A stretch of DNA of 26,988 nucleotides. Source: a virus. Its lineage: Duplodnaviria; Heunggongvirae; Uroviricota; Caudoviricetes. Below the pieces are notes generated by a model. It saw only the letters and a list, made by a program, of their open reading frames with translations. It did not search any database and was not told where the DNA came from. The DNA lies in IMG/VR virus record IMGVR_UViG_2698536339_000014, positions 1 through 26,988 of that record; one strand, written 5' to 3'. Positions 2,837-26,988 of the stretch are shown piece after piece (the first letter of the stretch is position 1; each line of letters starts with the position of its first letter). A program made the position numbers and the translations under genes.

Positions 2837-3479
2837 TGGCAGCAAATACCGAAATATTTGGGTAGTTGGCGATCTGCACGGATGCTACACGAACCTGATG
2901 AAAAAACTGGAGACGATAGGATTCGACACCAAAAAAGACCTGCTTATCTCGGTTGGCGATTTGGTCGATCGCGGTACAGAGAACGTCGAATGCCTGGAAT
3001 TAATCACATTCCCCTGGTTCAGAGCTGTACGTGGAAGCCATGAGCAAATGATGATTGATGGCTTATCAGAGCGCGGAAACGTCAATCACTGGATGCTTAA
3101 TGGCGGTGGCTGGTTCTTTAATCTCGATTACGACAAAGAAATTCTGGCTAAAGCTCTTGCCCATAAAGCAGATGAACTTCCGTTAATCATCGAACTGGTG
3201 AGCAAAGATAAAAAATATGTCATCTGCCACGCCGATTATCCTTGTGACGAATACGAGTTTGGAAAGCCAGTTGATCATCAGCAGGTAATCTGGAACCGCG
3301 AACGAATCAGCAACTCACAAGACGGGATCGTGAAAGAAATCAAAGGCGCGGACACGTTCATCTTTGGTCATACGCCAGCAGTGAAACCACTCAAGTTTGC
3401 CAACCAGATGTATATCGATACCGGCGCAGTGTTCTGCGGAAACCTCACATTGATTCAAGTACAGGGAGAAGGCGCATGA
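2814..3479 (+). CDS. Ser/Thr protein phosphatase (lambda PPase / NinI-like, calcineurin-like metallophosphatase)
   Basis: 221 aa from ATG 2814 ([28 protein letters not shown]...); GDLHG and GDLVDRG metallophosphatase motifs; the ORF track start at 2739 is an in-frame extension overlapping ninH. Confidence 0.9.
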
Positions 3480-4099
3480 GACTCGAAAGCGTGGCTAAAT
3501 TTCATTCGCCAAAAAGCCCGATGATGAGTGACTCACCACGGGCCACGGCTTCTGACTCTCTTTCTGGTACTGATGTGATGGCTGCTATGGGGATGGCGCA
3601 ATCACAAGCCGGATTCGGAATGGCTGCATTCTGCGGTAAGCATGAACTCAGCCAGAACGACAAACAAAAGGCTATCAACTATCTGATGCAATTTGCACAC
3701 AAGGTATCGGGGAAATACCGTGGTGTGGCAAAGCTTGAAGGAAATACTAAGGCAAAGGTACTGCAAGTGCTTGCAACATTCGCTTATGCGGATTATTGCC
3801 GTAGTGCCGCGACGCCGGGCGCAAGATGCAGAGATTGTCACGGTACAGGCCGTGCGGTTGATATAGCAAAAACAGAGCAGTGGGGGAGAGTTGTTGAGAA
3901 AGAATGCGGAAGATGCAAAGGCGTCGGCTATTCAAGGATGCCAGCAAGCGCCGCATATCGCGCTGTAACGATGCTAATCCCAAATCTTACTCAACCCACC
4001 TGGTCACGCACTGTTAAGCCGCTGTATGACGCTCTGGTGGTGCAATGCCACAAAGAAGAGTCAATCGCAGACAACATTTTGAATGCGGTCACACGTTAG
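3476..4099 (+). CDS. Q: late-gene antiterminator Q (lambda Q family)
   Basis: 207 aa; CRDCHGTG...CGRCKG zinc-binding motif; lies directly upstream of a pR'-like promoter and terminator. Confidence 0.9.
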
Positions 4100-4532: not shown

Positions 4533-4856
4533 ATGAAGATGCCAGAAAAACATGACCTGTTAGCCGCCATTCTCGCGGCAAAGGAACAAGGCATCGGGGC
4601 AATCCTTGCGTTTGCAATGGCGTACCTTCGCGGCAGATATAATGGCGGTGCGTTTACAAAAACAGTAATCGACGCAACGATGTGCGCCATTATCGCCTGG
4701 TTCATTCGTGACCTTCTCGACTTCGCCGGACTAAGTAGCAATCTCGCTTATATAACGAGCGTGTTCATCGGCTACATCGGTACTGACTCGATTGGTTCGC
4801 TTATCAAACGCTTCGCTGCTAAAAAAGCCGGAGTAGAAGATGGTGGAAATCAATAA
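4533..4856 (+). CDS. S: holin S (lambda class I holin, dual-start MKM motif)
   Basis: 107 aa; [20 protein letters not shown]... with three hydrophobic segments; first gene of the lysis cassette. Confidence 0.9.
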
Positions 4857-5316
4857 TCAACGTAAGGCGTTCCTCGATATGCTGGCGTGGTCAGAGGGAA
4901 CTGATAACGGACGGCAGAAAACCAGAAATCATGGTTATGACGTCATTGTAGGCGGAGAGCTATTCACTGATTACTCAGATCACCCTCGCAAACTTGTCAC
5001 GCTAAACCCCAAACTCAAATCAACAGCAGCCGGACGTTACCAGCTTCTTTCCCGTTGGTGGGATGTCTATCGTAAGCAGCTTGGCCTGAAAGACTTCTCT
5101 CCCAAAAGCCAGGACGCTGTGGCATTGCAGCAGATTAAAGAGCGTGGCGCTTTACCGATGATTGATCGCGGTGATATTCGTCAGGCTATCGACCGTTGCA
5201 GCAATATCTGGGCTTCACTGCCGGGCGCTGGTTATGGTCAGTTCGAGCATAAGGCTGACAGCCTGATTGCAAAATTCAAAGAAGCTGGAGGAACGGTCAG
5301 AGAGATTGAGGTATGA
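4840..5316 (+). CDS. R: endolysin R (lambda-type lytic transglycosylase)
   Basis: 158 aa; [21 protein letters not shown] with the catalytic Glu context; overlaps S and Rz. Confidence 0.9.
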
Positions 5317-5750
5317 GCAGAGTAACCGCGATTATCTCCGCTCTGATTATCTGCATCATCGTCTGTCTGTCATGGGCTGTTAATCATTACCGTGATAACG
5401 CCATCGCCTACAAAGACCAGCGCGATAAAGCCACATCCATCATCGCTGATATGCAGAAGCGTCAACGTGATGTAGCTGAACTCGATGCCAGATACACAAA
5501 GGAGCTTGCTGATGCTAACGCGACTATCGAAAGTCTCCGCGCTGATGTTTCTGCTGGGCGTAAGCGCCTGCAGGTCGCCGCCACCTGTGCAAAGTCAACG
5601 ACCGGAGCCAGCGGCATGGGCGATGGAGAAAGCCCAAGACTTACAGCAGATGCTGAACTCAATTATTACCGTCTCCGAAGTGGAATCGACAGGATAACCG
5701 CGCAGGTTAACTACCTGCAGGAGTACATCAGGACGCAATGCCTTCGATGA
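5313..5750 (+). CDS. Rz: i-spanin Rz
   Basis: 145 aa; N-terminal TM segment then coiled-coil periplasmic domain; ATGA overlap with R. Confidence 0.85.
5512..5697 (+). CDS. Rz1: o-spanin Rz1 (lipoprotein), embedded in the +1 frame of Rz
   Basis: [20 protein letters not shown]: signal peptide with lipobox-like VSAC, then a Pro-rich mature part; GGAG upstream; the ORF track start at 5485 is an extension. Confidence 0.7.
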
Positions 5751-6093: not shown

Positions 6094-6618
6094 ATGAATA
6101 ATCATTCAGTTATTCCAGCCTTCGACTTCCGAGAAATGGTGCAAGCCAAAAACGGAGAGGTCGTTACCACATCCAGAAAAATTGCCAAGTACTTCGGCAA
6201 GCGACACGGTGATGTTCTCAGGAAAATCGAGCAGGTTAAGGCTGATTGCTCGCGTGAGTTTAGCCAACGCAATTTTGCGTCGGCTGATTATATCGATGAA
6301 CAGGGCAAGGTTCGCCCGATGTACAGCCTGACGAAAGATGGCTGGATCATGGTTGTAATGGGGTTCACCGGGAAAGCTGCTGCAGCAATCAAGGAGAGCT
6401 ATATAGCAGCATTCAATTGGATGGCAGAGCAACTGAGCCGCCGCATGGCAATTGGCGAAGAAATGCAGCACCGCTACGCCATCAAAGAAACACGCTCAAA
6501 GCTGAAAGGTACGATCGGCAGTCGATTAATGAACGAACGGAAGAAAGAGAAGCGTGTCCTGGCTGTCGAGCATGAATACATCTTGCAGGTGACACAGCCT
6601 GAACTGCTGATTAATTGA
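6094..6618 (+). CDS. rha: Rha-family phage regulatory protein (P22 orf201-like position)
   Basis: 174 aa from ATG 6094; KIAKYFGKRHGDVLRKI motif typical of the Rha domain; the ORF track start at 5935 runs through the upstream terminator and is rejected. Confidence 0.7.
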   Translation: MNNHSVIPAFDFREMVQAKNGEVVTTSRKIAKYFGKRHGDVLRKIEQVKADCSREFSQRNFASADYIDEQGKVRPMYSLTKDGWIMVVMGFTGKAAAAIKESYIAAFNWMAEQLSRRMAIGEEMQHRYAIKETRSKLKGTIGSRLMNERKKEKRVLAVEHEYILQVTQPELLIN

Positions 6619-6657
6619 AGATGTCATTACAAAGCCTATCTACGGGTGGGCTTGATA

Positions 6658-6750
6658 ATGAAACCGGAATTTATTCTGGGTAACCAGTTACGGCAGTACC
6701 GCGAAACAACCCAAGCCAGTAAGTGGGGAAATAACACTGGCAGCCACTGA
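6658..6750 (+). pseudogene. possible remnant of an XRE-family HTH regulator (30-codon ORF)
   Basis: MKPEFILGNQLRQYRETTQAS resembles the N-terminus of Cro/CI-type HTH proteins but stops at TGA 6748-6750. Confidence 0.2.
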
Positions 6751-6909
6751 AAGATGAACCTCCTGCCTTATGGCAAAAAAGATTCTTTGTGGTGGCGGAC
6801 TGATGGAAAGACATCGGATAGAATAAAACAGTGGCTAGGGTAGCTCCCGAAAAGCGGAATCGTCACCGCCAGCCACTGAATCTATGACGAACAACTAGAC
6901 GAGGTTGAT

Positions 6910-7152
6910 ATGAGTGAAATTGATAAAATAATAAATGGTACATGTAACTTTCAATCAATGCCGCCAGGTAGTTATGTAAAACAATGTAGTGAAATAGTTA
7001 ATGGTCAGCTTGTAATGTCAAATGCAGGACGCGGAGTTTCTACGGATGAAAAAAAATCAATAAATGAAGCCCTGTTAAGCATCAATGTTTTTGACTTGTT
7101 TCGCCCATCTTGGGTTATCTTGCAAAATAGTAACCAATTCCCACATTATTGA
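6910..7152 (+). CDS. hypothetical protein (80 aa) encoded by an AT-rich moron
   Basis: GAGGT upstream; markedly AT-rich codon usage compared with flanking genes; followed by a weak hairpin plus T-tract. Confidence 0.5.
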   Translation: MSEIDKIINGTCNFQSMPPGSYVKQCSEIVNGQLVMSNAGRGVSTDEKKSINEALLSINVFDLFRPSWVILQNSNQFPHY

Positions 7153-7169
7153 TAATTAATTATTAAATT

Positions 7170-7191
7170 GGTCGCTAAGTCGGCCTTTTTT
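7170..7191 (+). terminator. weak candidate terminator after the moron ORF
   Basis: GGTCG-CTAAGT-CGGCC hairpin (one G-U) followed by T6. Confidence 0.3.
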
Positions 7192-7298
7192 ATTGCCATC
7201 ACAAAAGCCATTCCCTACAGAGTGGCTTTGATAATGGCTTATACCCTACACGGGATAACTTAACTGATATCCCTTTTAACGGATAAATGGAGCCAACA

Positions 7299-7541
7299 AT
7301 GGCAGAGATTATTCCCATGACTGAAGAACAGAAATTCCAGTTAGAGATTTACAAACTGGTCATGAACCAGAACGCAGCCGCAGAGGAAGCATTTCAGTTC
7401 ATTGGCACTGACGAGCTGAAGCTTGAGCTATTCAAAATTCACTTCCAGTCAGGCGGCGCTAATTCGGATATCACGATCCGCACATTTGAAGCGGTGCGTA
7501 AATCTAAGGAAGCGTTAGACCTGTTCACTACCGGAGCATGA
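7299..7541 (+). CDS. hypothetical protein (80 aa), position of P22 orf80 upstream of the small terminase
   Basis: ATG 7299 with GGAG 6 nt upstream; the ORF track start at 7287 is an alternative. Confidence 0.5.
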   Translation: MAEIIPMTEEQKFQLEIYKLVMNQNAAAEEAFQFIGTDELKLELFKIHFQSGGANSDITIRTFEAVRKSKEALDLFTTGA

Positions 7542-7576
7542 TGCTCAACCTGAAATAACAACTAAGTGAGATGAAT

Positions 7577-8065
7577 ATGGCAGCACCAAAGGGCAACCGA
7601 TTTTGGGAGGCCCGCAGTAGTCATGGGCGAAATCCTAAATTCGAATCGCCTGATGCGCTGTGGGCTGCTTGTTGTGAATACTTCGAGTGGGCTGATGATA
7701 ACCCGCTATGGGAGGGTAAGGTATTTTCATATCAGGGAGAAATAATTAAGGCTAATGTCCCTAAGATGCGAGCCATGACTATTTCAGGATTGTGTACCTT
7801 CCTTGATATCACCAGGCAAACATGGGGAACCTTCCGGTCAATGGAAGGTTTTTCTGACGTCACATCACGAGCGGAAGACATCATCTACGACCAGAAATTC
7901 TCTGGCGCAGCCGCTGACCTTCTCAACGCTAACATCATCGCCCGTGATTTGGGCCTCAAAGAGCAGTCGCAAGTTGAAGACGTGACACCTGATAAGGGAG
8001 ATCGCGATAAGCGACGCTCTCGTATCAAGGAGCTATTCAACCGTGGAACTGGACGCGATTCTTGA
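7577..8065 (+). CDS. terS: terminase small subunit (P22 gp3-like)
   Basis: [25 protein letters not shown]... and the C-terminal [25 protein letters not shown] match my recollection of P22 gp3; alternative start 7571. Confidence 0.85.
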
Positions 8066-24600: not shown

Positions 24601-25731
24601 TTATTTTACTGAATTTCTTAAAATAAAGCCTTCTCTGCAAGATTTTACTTTAAAACGAAGAAAAAAACTCTCAAATAAGTAAAATGATGCTATTGAAACT
24701 GCATATGATACAATAAATGAAGCAGCTATGTAAGTGAATCCATCAGTTGTGATTCCTACAAATGAAAACATTTTTCTTACTATTGAAAAACATAGCAAGT
24801 GCCACATGTAAAGGCCGTAACTTATATTTCCTGTAAATCTAAGGAATTTTAAGTTAAATATCTTGTTACAAGTCGTTATAAATAGTTGTAAAATATTGCT
24901 GTCTGTTGCTGTCTGTTGCTGTCTGTTGCTGTCTGTCATTTTTCCTGATGAATAATATAAGAACCAAATAATTGATGAGAATGTCATCCCTAATGATGTA
25001 AATAGGTATAATCCCTTGCCAACCCACTGCTCTGGATGCCAAAAATTATTAATCCCAATATTTATAACGCCATATGCAGTAACAATAGAACCAACTATAA
25101 ATGTCAACATGGCTATTTGTGGTGCTTTATTGCTATCCTTTATATGAGCAAAGATAGCGCCTAGGACAAGCATATCAACACAACTGATAAGAGTTACGTT
25201 AGTTATATACGGATTACCTCCAGACATATTGAATATAAAATATCTAGAAGCTAGTGAGATTATCACAAGAAATACAAAAAAACATACTTCCTTTGGTGGG
25301 CGAATAAAAAATATTACAATAGGCCAAATCCAATAGAATTGTTCTTCTATAGCTAGAGACCATGTGTGTCCAAGTATTCCTGGTGTTGTTATGTTATTAC
25401 CAATGTAATAGTTTTGTAAGTAGGTGACAAACCAAGAATAACCTTCCGTACTTCCTCCCATTGATTTAACTATTACAAAATTAACCGCAAGGTATAGATA
25501 GAATAGAGGAAATATTCTCAACGATCTATTTATTAGAAACTTTTTAATATACCAGGCAAATCTATACTTCCTGTCTTCCTCAAGAATTGATGTGATCAGG
25601 AACCCCGAAAGGCAAAAGAATAATGGAACACCAGCCCACCCCAAAGATGCCCAAGGTATATTAGAATGAAATAACATGACCATTATGACGGCAATTCCTC
25701 TAGCTCCATCAAGAGAAGTAACGTGTTTCAT
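24601..25731 (-). CDS. acyltransferase-3 family integral membrane protein (candidate O-antigen acetyltransferase, Oac/OafA-like)
   Basis: 376 aa; N-terminal LDGARGIAVIMVMLFH and C-terminal FTGNISYGLYMWH motifs; about 10 hydrophobic segments; strongly AT-rich; sits between tailspike and int, as oac does in Sf6. Confidence 0.8.
   Translation of the reverse strand: MKHVTSLDGARGIAVIMVMLFHSNIPWASLGWAGVPLFFCLSGFLITSILEEDRKYRFAWYIKKFLINRSLRIFPLFYLYLAVNFVIVKSMGGSTEGYSWFVTYLQNYYIGNNITTPGILGHTWSLAIEEQFYWIWPIVIFFIRPPKEVCFFVFLVIISLASRYFIFNMSGGNPYITNVTLISCVDMLVLGAIFAHIKDSNKAPQIAMLTFIVGSIVTAYGVINIGINNFWHPEQWVGKGLYLFTSLGMTFSSIIWFLYYSSGKMTDSNRQQQTATDSNILQLFITTCNKIFNLKFLRFTGNISYGLYMWHLLCFSIVRKMFSFVGITTDGFTYIAASFIVSYAVSIASFYLFESFFLRFKVKSCREGFILRNSVK
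24898..24937 (-). repeat. 10-bp tandem repeat x4 (GCTGTCTGTT on +; last unit GCTGTCTGTC) inside the acyltransferase coding sequence
   Basis: Counted directly in the sequence; encodes TDSNRQQQTATDS in the gene frame. Confidence 0.95.
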
Positions 25732-25821: not shown

Positions 25822-26988
25822 TCATGAACTAACTTTAAACTTCTCATCAAGCCAGTCCGCCCACCACTGCATCATTTCTCTGCGCTTATCGAGATACTGA
25901 GCATGGTTGTAAATCCCGCGCACAGATCCGCCGTTGGCATGTGCCAGTTGCACTTCAATAGCATCAGCAGGCCATTCGTGCTCGTTCATAATCGTGCTGA
26001 ATTCATGCCTGAATCCGTGACCGCTTTCCAGACCCTCATAGCCGATTTGTTTGATCACAAGCAATACCGCGTTCTCGCAGATTGGCTTCTTCTTATCGTT
26101 GCGCCCGGCAAAAACAAACTCTGATACTGGTTTAGTGATTGAGCTTAGCGTAGTGAGAAGTTCAACTACCTGGTCTGACATAGGAACCACATGAATTTTG
26201 CGTCCCTTCATCACACTGGCGTCGATGGTGATAATCCTGTTTTCAAAATCGACGTTCTTCCATAGCATGGAACGAAGCTCTTTCGTTCTTAGGGCAGTGT
26301 AGCGTAAAACCTTGGTGGCAATGAGCGATACGATACTTCCTGAAAATGTTGCCAGTGCTTTATTGAATGCCGGGATCTGGTCTGCAGGAAGAAACGGGAA
26401 GTTCTTCTTGCGGTACCCCTTCATGGCGTCAGCAAGGTCAGGTGCCGGGTTATATTTAGCCCTACCAGTGACAATAGCGTAACGGAAAACCTCGCCGCAT
26501 CTTCTGCGGGCTTTGTTGGCTCGCTCCATTGCACCGCGATCTTCAAACCTGCGGATTACTTCCAGCAGTTGCATCGGCTCAATATCCTGAATTTCAAGGC
26601 CGCCAATGATAGGTAAAATGTCGTCGTCAAACATTTTGGCAAGTTCAGTCGCATATCCTACAGACCAGACTTGCTTCTTGTGCTCGTACCATTCCTTGTA
26701 AATGGCGCTAAAGGAATTGTTGTTAGACGAAGCCTTTTTCGCTTTTACCGGATCGATGCCAACCGAGATGTCTTTCCTCGCAGTCCATGCTTTATCCCTT
26801 GCCTCTTGCAAAGTCATAAGCGGATATTTTCCTACGGTCAGGATTTTCTCCTTACCGTCAATCTTGTAGCGAAGCTGCCATACCTTTTTCCCTGACACAG
26901 GGACATAAAGGTACAGGCCATTACCATCGAGTAGGCGGTATGGTTTTTCTTTCGGCTTTGCTGCTTCAATCTGCTTAACGGTGAGCAT
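25822..26988 (-). CDS. int: tyrosine integrase (P4/P22-type, N-terminal arm-binding domain)
   Basis: 388 aa; HGFRHEF...GIYNHAQYL catalytic region; start codon is the last 3 nt of the window (reverse strand). Confidence 0.9.
   Translation of the reverse strand: MLTVKQIEAAKPKEKPYRLLDGNGLYLYVPVSGKKVWQLRYKIDGKEKILTVGKYPLMTLQEARDKAWTARKDISVGIDPVKAKKASSNNNSFSAIYKEWYEHKKQVWSVGYATELAKMFDDDILPIIGGLEIQDIEPMQLLEVIRRFEDRGAMERANKARRRCGEVFRYAIVTGRAKYNPAPDLADAMKGYRKKNFPFLPADQIPAFNKALATFSGSIVSLIATKVLRYTALRTKELRSMLWKNVDFENRIITIDASVMKGRKIHVVPMSDQVVELLTTLSSITKPVSEFVFAGRNDKKKPICENAVLLVIKQIGYEGLESGHGFRHEFSTIMNEHEWPADAIEVQLAHANGGSVRGIYNHAQYLDKRREMMQWWADWLDEKFKVSS

What the first reader, a model, noticed from the sequence alone, without database searches (positions are those of the whole stretch)
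6910..7152. AT-rich moron ORF between rha and the packaging genes
This 80-codon ORF has a plausible ribosome-binding site, a downstream weak hairpin plus T-tract, and much lower GC than its neighbours. It sits in the rha-to-terminase interval, a region where lambdoid phages often carry lysogenic-conversion or anti-defence cargo. The protein has no motif I recognise.
Basis: inference. Interest (0 to 1): 0.5.

Follow-up and report, generated by a model that had tools for sequence, protein, structure and literature searches.

The report
Orphan phage gene behind int-alpA leader
The 80-codon ORF is a real but rare accessory gene of a P22-like E. coli prophage, and it sits in a ~372-bp swappable cassette whose conserved structured RNA leader (Rfam int-alpA) is shared by dozens of unrelated phage genes and appears built to control their translation.

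Summary
ORF 6910-7152 has GAGG 5 nt before its ATG, 34% GC against ~47-50% in its neighbours, and a weak hairpin plus T-run at 7170-7191. It lies between rha and DUF2560/gp3 in a P22-like prophage. It is a real gene: dN/dS is 0.16-0.21 against 75%-identical relatives. It is an orphan: no profile-library or credible fold match, and only 15 of 5,426 complete E. coli genomes carry it.

Window 6828-6890 is a full-length match to Rfam RF02996 (int-alpA; 42 bits, threshold 35.8). Compared with phage Kapi1, 6818-7189 is a discrete insertion holding a −10-like hexamer, the leader, the ORF and the terminator. The same leader precedes at least 25 unrelated small ORFs in enterobacterial phages and 69 cargo clusters family-wide.

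The loop of the leader's second hairpin is complementary to two downstream sites. The second site lies in the loop of a hairpin that carries the Shine-Dalgarno sequence. This holds across 80 distinct loops, far beyond permutation controls.

My reading is that this is a mobile accessory-gene ("moron") cassette whose translation is set by a self-complementary leader. That resembles the P1/P7 C4 and P4 CI antisense RNAs, but it is not a member of that family. The protein's function is unknown.

The parts
6818..7189 (+). Cassette: the insertion relative to the empty slot of phage Kapi1. It holds the -10-like hexamer, structured leader, ORF and terminator stem.
   Evidence: Kapi1 (L237) is identical to the window up to ...GACATCGG (6817) and resumes at TTATTGC (7190-7196). 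The same frame carries a different ORF in BIS08P22. The unit from the outer stem to the terminator is shared with relatives sitting in a different slot.
6819..6824 (+). -10-like hexamer TAGAAT (5/6 match). There is no TGn, and the best -35 is CGGACT at 6796-6801 (3/6).
   Evidence: A hexamer matching TATAAT at >=5/6 ends 10-16 nt before the motif's TAGG in 69 of 157 distinct leaders, against ~1% per position background. TGn is present in 22 of those 69. The consensus scan did not call it as a promoter.
6828..6890 (+). int-alpA RNA (Rfam RF02996): a three-way junction. P1 is 6828-6835/6872-6879. P2 is 6838-6840/6846-6848. P3 is 6854-6857/6866-6869 with loop L3 AAUCGUCA at 6858-6865.
   Evidence: 42.0 bits against a gathering score of 35.8, model positions 1-71 of 71, E = 1.1e-5 for the whole window; it is the only Rfam hit in the window. 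The core folds at -21.7 kcal/mol, z = -3.8.
6885..6890 (+). Site 1 (UGACGA): a perfect complement of the L3 bases UCGUCA.
   Evidence: Read from the sequence. Family-wide covariation of loop and site is shown.
6892..6907 (+). SD hairpin P4 (CAACU/GGUUG). Its loop AGACGA holds site 2 (GACGA, 6898-6902), which is complementary to L3. The SD GAGG at 6901-6904 lies half in the loop and half in the stem.
   Evidence: Fold results. Site 2 lies in the loop of a local hairpin of >=4 bp in 32 of 44 divergent leaders, against a flank-shuffled null of 12.5 +/- 2.7. The site-2 end is a median of 7 nt from the start codon.
6910..7152 (+). ORF80: coding sequence for an 80-aa orphan protein, predicted all-helical, with two invariant Cys (C12, C26).
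   Evidence: dN/dS 0.16-0.21. Only six protein clusters among 5.8 billion. Annotated as hypothetical protein WP_153781378.1 in RefSeq. AF2 mean pLDDT 64.8 with four helices.
7049..7056 (+). A8 run inside the ORF. It is the site of the frameshift that yields the truncated 52-aa alleles.
   Evidence: P0005 and P0006 and L063.
7170..7191 (+). Weak intrinsic terminator (5-bp stem with one G-U pair, 6-nt loop, T6).
   Evidence: The same terminator with a better 6-7 bp stem follows other cargo ORFs that sit behind the same leader.

Best explanation
ORF80 is a genuine protein-coding accessory gene. It is the cargo of a ~372-bp self-contained cassette (6818-7189) inserted in the late region of a P22-like prophage. 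The cassette has four parts: a weak -10-like element, an int-alpA-class structured 5' leader, the ORF, and a weak intrinsic terminator.

The leader and terminator form a conserved frame. That frame is reused for many unrelated small ORFs and moves between late-region slots, most simply by recombination within the conserved frame.

Inferred mechanism of expression: the mRNA is made either by read-through of the antiterminated late operon or from the weak cassette promoter. Translation is then set by the leader. The P3 loop (UCGUC[A]) can pair with site 1 (UGACGA) just after the junction. Alternatively it can pair with site 2 (GACGA) in the loop of the small hairpin that holds the Shine-Dalgarno sequence. 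These two pairings use the same loop bases, so they exclude each other. Pairing with site 2, in cis or by a second copy of the leader RNA in trans, would change ribosome access. Site 1, which is slightly longer, acts as the competing partner.

Shown here: the gene is under purifying selection; the leader is RF02996; the cassette edges; the cargo diversity; the fixed spacing from leader to start codon; and the covariation of the loop with two sites and with the SD hairpin.

Inferred: that the pairings regulate translation, and in which direction.

Guess only: the protein is a small cytoplasmic helical protein acting on a host or competitor target.
For: Coding: dN/dS 0.16-0.21, with differences concentrated at codon position 3. 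Leader identity: RF02996 at 42 bits, full length.

Cassette edges: the empty slot in Kapi1; the same frame carrying a different ORF in BIS08P22; and the same outer-stem-to-terminator unit sitting in the antiterminator-holin slot in relatives L003-L008.

Cis-leader geometry: the start codon lies 39-41 nt after the motif core in 105 of 111 loci.

Cargo diversity: 25 clusters behind an identical 23-nt core. Across the wider family there are 69 clusters, including DUF1376, DUF927, HTH_36, HNH and GIY-YIG proteins.

Loop pairings: of 80 distinct P3 loops, 72 have at least one perfect complement of >=5 nt downstream and 53 have at least two. Permuted loop/leader pairs give means of 17.6 (max 28) and 4.1 (max 10). 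Site 2 ends a median of 7 nt from the start codon and overlaps an SD-like tetramer in 31 of 44. It lies in a hairpin loop in 32 of 44 against a null of 12.5. Site 1 is longer than site 2 in 25 cases and shorter in 2 (p = 6e-6).

Ten of 20 divergent leaders pass Rfam's own threshold. Cassettes are always co-oriented with the flanking late genes.
Against: There are no expression data of any kind. The promoter is weak by consensus, and a start 7 nt after the hexamer would remove most of the 5' strand of P1. So it is unclear which transcript carries the full structure.

The two loop pairings have nearly equal predicted energies (-7.5 against -7.1 kcal/mol in the window), so the direction of any switch is undetermined. 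The L002 relative keeps an intact ORF behind a leader whose P1-P3 stems look damaged (by eye). So the leader is not indispensable for keeping the gene.

Frameshifted alleles exist, so the gene is dispensable in some hosts. The permutation controls preserve composition but not phylogeny. Many viral contigs are near-identical prophages, so counts are not independent. The protein model has low confidence.
Confidence: 0.6

Rival explanations
1. Classic Hendrix-type moron. The cassette is transcribed in the lysogen from its own sigma-70 promoter and stopped by its terminator. The structured leader only stabilises the 5' end of the mRNA, and the loop/site complementarity has no switching role. The protein is a lysogenic-conversion or exclusion factor.
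For: A -10 hexamer is positionally enriched, with TGn in 22 of 69. A terminator follows the ORF. The composition is deviant. Other phages have an empty slot here.
Against: The window's promoter is weak: 5/6 -10, 3/6 -35, no TGn. Only 44% of leaders have any -10. A purely stabilising hairpin does not explain why the loop covaries with two downstream sites, one of them at the SD.
Confidence: 0.2
2. The functional product is the int-alpA small RNA acting in trans on other targets, as Rfam's 'sRNA' type implies. On this view ORF80 is an incidental or decaying open frame.
For: Rfam classes RF02996 as Gene; sRNA. Truncated ORF80 alleles exist.
Against: ORF80 is under purifying selection. A start codon follows the motif at a fixed distance in 105 of 111 loci. 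The loop's complements lie in its own leader.
Confidence: 0.07
3. The leader is a ligand- or protein-sensing riboregulator: a riboswitch or an operator for a phage or host RNA-binding protein. The conserved junction (CUAGGGUAGCUCCCGAAAAG) binds the effector, and the effector shifts L3 between site 1 and site 2.
For: The junction and P2 nucleotides are nearly invariant while P1, P3, L3 and P4 vary freely. The layout is a three-way junction plus a pseudoknot reaching the SD.
Against: The cargo is functionally heterogeneous: replication proteins, nucleases and orphans. This argues against a metabolite tied to the function of the downstream gene. No candidate protein partner is conserved in the cassettes.
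Confidence: 0.1
4. The conserved frame is a DNA-level site, either an attC-like single-strand recombination site or operator repeats. On this view it drives cassette mobility or binds a DNA-binding regulator, and it is not an RNA element.
For: Cassettes occupy several slots and swap cargo. The discovery paper notes that such motif searches can pick up ssDNA sites such as attC (PMC5737381).
Against: The element has a strict orientation with, and fixed distance to, a start codon and SD. No recombinase or cognate DNA-binding protein travels with the cassettes, yet the loop and sites covary across 80 variants. It is single-copy per genome rather than arrayed.
Confidence: 0.03

Closest known systems
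int-alpA RNA motif (Rfam RF02996; found by comparative genomics in Weinberg et al. 2017, PMC5737381)
   Same: The window element is a full-length, above-threshold member with the same three-way junction and the same conserved junction nucleotides. Divergent copies used here also pass the threshold.
   Different: Rfam types it as an sRNA gene, and its name refers to integrase/alpA neighbourhoods. Here it lies in the late region, 19 nt before a start codon. The analysis adds parts outside the 71-nt model: a second complementary site and an SD hairpin. I could not read the discovery paper's supplement, so I cannot say whether the first pseudoknot was already drawn there.
Morons of lambdoid phages (Hendrix/Juhala concept: promoter, gene and terminator inserted between conserved genes, with deviant composition). 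Basis: my own knowledge.
   Same: It is extra DNA between genes that are adjacent in relatives. It has low GC and its own terminator, and it is co-oriented with the late operon.
   Different: The promoter is marginal. The unit is defined instead by a conserved structured leader shared by many unrelated cargos.
P1/P7 C4 antisense RNA (immI: c4-icd-ant) and satellite P4 CI RNA (seqB against seqA/seqC)
   Same: An RNA element embedded in the untranslated leader of the transcript it controls is complementary to two sites in that same transcript. P4 CI pairs with seqA and seqC (PMC4825925). C4 represses the downstream icd-ant genes of its own operon (PMC8198154). From my own knowledge, the C4 target overlaps the icd ribosome-binding site, and P1/P7 specificity rests on matched loop/target changes. 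That parallels the covariation seen here.
   Different: There is no similarity to the Rfam C4 model: no hit at E <= 10. Here both sites lie downstream. Processing and trans action are untested. The cargo is not an immunity function.
Pseudoknot activators of repZ/repA translation in IncI-alpha/IncB plasmids. Basis: my own knowledge.
   Same: A hairpin loop pairs with a sequence next to the RBS of the downstream gene to set translation.
   Different: In the plasmids the pairing activates translation and is blocked by a separate antisense RNA. No leader peptide or separate antisense gene is seen here.
Free-standing homing-endonuclease cassettes in phage genomes
   Same: In the wider leader family some cargos are HNH or GIY-YIG nucleases inserted between essential genes, for example between TerL and portal in Vibrio PS15B-5.
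   Different: ORF80 has no nuclease domain and no similarity to those cargos.

Membership tests
Rfam RF02996 int-alpA | Covariance-model score at or above the curated gathering score, over the full model | tested here: met
   42.0 bits against 35.8, positions 1-71 of 71.
Rfam RF02996 int-alpA | Three-way junction (closing stem plus two hairpins) with conserved junction nucleotides | tested here: met
   The cmscan alignment shows all three stems. The MFE of 6826-6882 reproduces them, z = -3.8.
Rfam RF02996 int-alpA | Neighbourhood of integrase / alpA genes, which gives the motif its name | tested here: not met
   In the window it lies between rha and DUF2560 in the late region. The integrase is ~19 kb away at 25822-26988. 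This is a contextual association, not a structural criterion.
Moron (Hendrix/Juhala) | Inserted between genes that are adjacent in related phages | tested here: met
   Kapi1 has an empty slot with flanks joined at 6817|7190.
Moron (Hendrix/Juhala) | Nucleotide composition different from the flanks | tested here: met
   GC 0.34 against 0.45-0.52.
Moron (Hendrix/Juhala) | Own terminator | tested here: met
   7170-7191, weak.
Moron (Hendrix/Juhala) | Own promoter active in the lysogen | tested here: inconclusive
   TAGAAT at 6819-6824 lies in a positionally enriched -10 peak. However, the -35 is 3/6, the consensus scan did not call it, and no expression data are available.
C4 / CI antisense RNA family (Rfam C4) | Match to the family covariance model | tested here: not met
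   C4 is not among the hits at E <= 10 for window 6500-7400.
C4 / CI antisense RNA family (Rfam C4) | Element in the leader that is complementary to two sites of its own transcript, one of them at the RBS | tested here: met
   L3 is complementary to site 1 (6885-6890) and site 2 (6898-6902), which overlaps SD 6901-6904.
C4 / CI antisense RNA family (Rfam C4) | Processing to a stable small RNA that acts in trans | not testable with these tools
   This needs Northern blots or RNA-seq and trans-complementation.
Homing-endonuclease cassette | Cargo encodes an HNH / GIY-YIG / LAGLIDADG nuclease | tested here: not met
   ORF80 has no Pfam, PHROG or NCBIfam hit and shows no BLAST link to the nuclease cargos.
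Known defence-system proteins | Match to a PADLOC profile | tested here: not met
   0 families at E <= 10. No dedicated anti-defence library was available.

The most novel reading that the evidence does not exclude
int-alpA leaders are a widespread, programmable 'self-addressed' antisense module of phages and satellites. A three-way-junction RNA carries a variable loop that encodes a private address, matched by two copies in its own leader. One copy is a decoy and the other sits in the SD hairpin. This gives dose-dependent or immunity-like control of whatever gene is plugged in behind it. The module would serve as a portable expression chassis for accessory genes, homing endonucleases and replication genes. 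ORF80 would be one such cargo with a new, possibly counter-defence, activity.
Probability: 0.3. Interest if true: 0.75.

Novelty: new variant of a known kind. Interest (0 to 1): 0.55.

Why it matters
Taken alone, ORF80 is one more orphan phage accessory gene. The context is more useful.

It links an uncharacterised Rfam motif to a concrete, testable role as a cis-acting leader with a fixed distance to the start codon. It also extends the motif's architecture with a second complementary site and an SD hairpin. And it shows that the same frame is reused for dozens of unrelated genes in phages of Escherichia, Salmonella, Klebsiella, Edwardsiella, Pantoea, Vibrio, Shewanella and Pseudomonas.

If the loop/site code does gate translation, it would be a simple, portable and orthogonal regulatory part. 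It could also be used to find accessory genes in phage genomes by searching for the leader rather than for the protein.

Tried and rejected
1. Remote homology of ORF80. Pfam, PHROGs, NCBIfam and PADLOC gave nothing. PDB sequence profiles gave nothing. The species-representative genomes gave nothing. tblastn against 50,697 phage records gave nothing.

2. The exhaustive phmmer search returned 37 giant repeat proteins with E-values down to 3e-20. I rejected these. They belong to three unrelated repeat types: a Big_12 Ig-like domain, a 41-aa Cys repeat, and a 'PPGSYxxC' repeat. Each single repeat scores only ~25-31 bits. The low E-values come from summing near-identical tandem copies. The structure model is all-helical, not beta-rich.

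3. AlphaFold2 on the 4-sequence alignment gave mean pLDDT 64.8 and pTM 0.47. Foldseek against BFVD and PDB gave nothing below E = 1. These results are uninformative.

4. Alignment-based pair counts for the pseudoknots. MAFFT did not keep the 3' half in structural register. The gap-free geometry classes are dominated by one invariant loop. I used alignment-free permutation and shuffle tests instead and did not run the count of structure pairs or build a covariance model.

5. ORF80 as a degraded homing endonuclease: no similarity to the nuclease cargos.

6. DNA operator or attC reading of the repeats: no cognate protein travels with the cassettes, and the element has strict orientation with and spacing to the SD.

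7. Function by association: the other small cargos are all of unknown function.

8. Literature: no functional study of int-alpA was found, and the discovery paper's supplement is not held.

Full report
**Observation.** The window is a mosaic P22-like (Lederbergvirus-type) E. coli prophage. Its order is: nin region; late antiterminator 3476-4099 (PF03589); holin 4533-4856; lysozyme 4840-5316; Rz 5313-5750; Rha 6094-6618; the ORF in question 6910-7152; DUF2560 7287-7541; gp3 small terminase 7571-8065; TerL; portal; head and ejection genes; tailspike; an acyltransferase; and an integrase. The ORF has 80 codons. GAGG lies 5 nt before the ATG. GC is 0.34 against 0.45-0.52 in the flanks. A 5-bp hairpin followed by six T lies at 7170-7191 and is indeed weak, at -6.5 kcal/mol and z = -1.3.

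**Is it a gene?** Yes. The exact DNA occurs in 15 of 5,426 complete E. coli genomes, always between a lysis/rha gene and DUF2560, and always annotated as a hypothetical protein. A search of 5.8 billion protein clusters finds only six. These are a 94%-identical cluster with 62 members, two 74-75%-identical relatives, and truncated forms. Against the 75% relatives, 27-29 of 45-48 nucleotide differences fall at third codon positions. dN/dS is 0.16-0.21 at dS 0.75-0.88. Some alleles are frameshifted at an A8 run (7049-7056), so the gene is dispensable in some hosts.

**What is the protein?** It is unknown. There is no hit in Pfam, PHROGs, NCBIfam, PADLOC, PDB sequences, 50,697 phage records or 185,579 species-representative genomes. 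The exhaustive phmmer search returned giant repeat proteins. These belong to three unrelated repeat families that each match at only ~25-31 bits per repeat, so the low E-values are an artefact of summing tandem copies. AlphaFold2 gives a low-confidence four-helix model (pLDDT 64.8), and it has no fold match below E = 1. By inspection of the sequence there is no signal peptide or hydrophobic segment. Two Cys residues are invariant.

**The leader.** The relatives sit in two different slots. P0002 lies between the lysis genes and DUF2560, as in the window. P0003 lies between the late antiterminator and the holin. Alignment shows that the shared unit runs from about 80 nt upstream of the ATG to just past the terminator. 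Salmonella phage BIS08P22 carries a completely different 89-aa ORF in the window's slot, framed by the same upstream segment and the same terminator. That upstream segment, window 6828-6890, is a full-length match to Rfam RF02996 (int-alpA RNA). It scores 42.0 bits against a gathering score of 35.8, and it is the only Rfam hit in the window. Phage Kapi1 has an empty slot. It is identical to the window up to 6817 and resumes at 7190. The insertion is therefore 6818-7189, starting one base before a TAGAAT hexamer and ending in the terminator T-run.

**The leader is a reused frame.** The 101-nt leader plus SD block is found at 75-89% identity in phages of Vibrio, Pseudomonas, Shewanella, Klebsiella, Edwardsiella, Pantoea and Enterobacter. 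It is typically wedged between essential genes, for example between TerL and portal, or between head or tail genes. An ORF always starts exactly at its end. Among 111 loci with an identical 23-nt core, the start codon lies 39-41 nt after the core in 105. The ORFs fall into 25 unrelated clusters of 52-158 aa, and ORF80 is the second most common. A looser pattern recovers 157 distinct leaders, and 155 distinct cargo proteins behind such leaders fall into 69 clusters. These include DUF1376, DUF927 primase-type and HTH_36 replication-module proteins, HNH and GIY-YIG nucleases, and many orphans. Ten of 20 divergent copies pass Rfam's own threshold. Where P22-type landmark genes are present, most cassettes lie in the Rz/Rha-to-DUF2560 slot, and all are co-oriented with the flanking genes. 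In E. coli the leader occurs in 57 of 5,426 genomes, almost always as a single copy. The other small cargos have no known function.

**Architecture beyond the Rfam model.**
- The P3 loop (AAUCGUCA, 6858-6865) is complementary to UGACGA at 6885-6890 (site 1).
- It is also complementary to GACGA at 6898-6902 (site 2).
- Site 2 forms the loop of a small hairpin, CAACU/GGUUG at 6892-6907, which also holds the SD.
- Both pairings covary across the family. Of 80 distinct loops, 72 have at least one perfect complement of >=5 nt in their own downstream 60 nt, and 53 have at least two. When loops are paired with other leaders, the means are 17.6 (max 28) and 4.1 (max 10) over 500 permutations.
- Site 2 ends a median of 7 nt from the start codon and overlaps an SD-like tetramer in 31 of 44 leaders.
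- Site 2 lies in the loop of a local hairpin of >=4 bp in 32 of 44 leaders, against 12.5 +/- 2.7 after flank shuffling.
- Site 1 is longer than site 2 in 25 cases and shorter in 2 (p = 6e-6), although the duplex energies are close.
- The two pairings use the same loop bases, so they are mutually exclusive.
- The 75%-diverged ORF80 relatives keep this layout with compensatory changes in P2 and P3, though they no longer score against the Rfam model. L002's copy looks partly decayed (by eye).

**Promoter question.** A hexamer matching TATAAT at >=5/6 ends 10-16 nt before the motif in 69 of 157 distinct leaders, against about 1% per position background. TGn is present in 22 of those 69, and -35 matches are modestly enriched. 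The window's version is TAGAAT with a 3/6 -35 and no TGn, and the consensus scan did not call it. The hexamer abuts the outer stem, so a start 7 nt downstream would leave only the inner ~5 bp of P1. I cannot say whether there are two transcript classes (cassette promoter and late read-through) or whether the hexamer has some other role. This remains unexplained.

**Interpretation.** The best-supported reading is a mobile accessory-gene cassette, a moron in the broad sense. Its expression is governed by an int-alpA-class leader that can pair its loop either with a decoy site or with the SD hairpin loop. The closest mechanistic precedents are the P1/P7 C4 antisense RNA and the P4 CI RNA. Both lie in the leader of the transcript they control, and both pair with two complementary sites in it (PMC8198154; PMC4825925). 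The element is not a member of that family, because the Rfam C4 model gives no hit. The direction of regulation, any processing or trans action, and the function of the protein are all inferences or unknown.

**Novelty and score.** The ORF is a new orphan family in a known category. The leader is a known Rfam motif seen here in a new role, with added parts. I rate it a new variant of a known kind, with interest 0.55. The ORF alone would deserve about 0.3. The leader analysis raises the score because it makes the function of an uncharacterised, widespread phage RNA motif directly testable.

Noticed in passing
L003 7760-7821; L004 7761-7821: Sub-threshold type III hammerhead hits (RF00008, 30.5 and 29.6 bits against a gathering score of 48.5, E 0.012-0.021) with an intact CUGAUGA...GAAAC core. 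They lie in the antiterminator-holin interval just upstream of the P0003 cassette. The window's equivalent interval has no such hit.
   Followed up: partly
L002 2807-2885: An above-threshold isrJ Hfq-binding sRNA (RF01393, 44.2 bits) lies directly after the Q antiterminator gene of a P22-like prophage. The window's equivalent region scores only 19 bits.
   Followed up: partly
window 6819-6835: The -10-like hexamer abuts the 8-9 bp outer stem of the leader, in the window and in most copies. Transcription from it would therefore delete most of that stem's 5' strand. This may mean two transcript classes with different leader folds.
   Followed up: partly
window 7049-7056: An A8 run inside ORF80 is the frameshift site of the truncated 52-aa alleles. 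P0005 has 15 member sequences and P0006 has 2. L063 also has a T insertion nearby.
   Followed up: yes
window 24601-25731 (-) and 25822-26988 (-): An acyltransferase_3 gene lies next to the tailspike and beside the integrase. It is probably an O-antigen acetylase and so a lysogenic-conversion gene, making it the more conventional conversion cargo of this prophage.
   Followed up: no
L004 10214-10276 and ~7925-8003; L220 3742-3814 and 4223-4305: Some phage contigs carry two int-alpA-type leaders. In L004 one precedes a DUF551 ORF in the window's slot and one precedes the ORF80 relative in the antiterminator-holin slot. Both have the same loop core (UCGUCA), so cross-talk between cassettes is conceivable.
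   Followed up: partly
L135 4332-4517; L122 4621-4676: Other structured RNAs lie near int-alpA copies in viral contigs: HEARO RNA (RF02033, 90 bits) and GP20-b (RF03003, 50.6 bits).
   Followed up: no
window 6625-6815: The ~190-nt non-coding stretch between rha and the cassette is conserved at 95-98% in many P22-like phages and over 2,000 E. coli genomes, whatever cargo follows it. Its role is unknown. It may supply the -35 region for cassette promoters.
   Followed up: no
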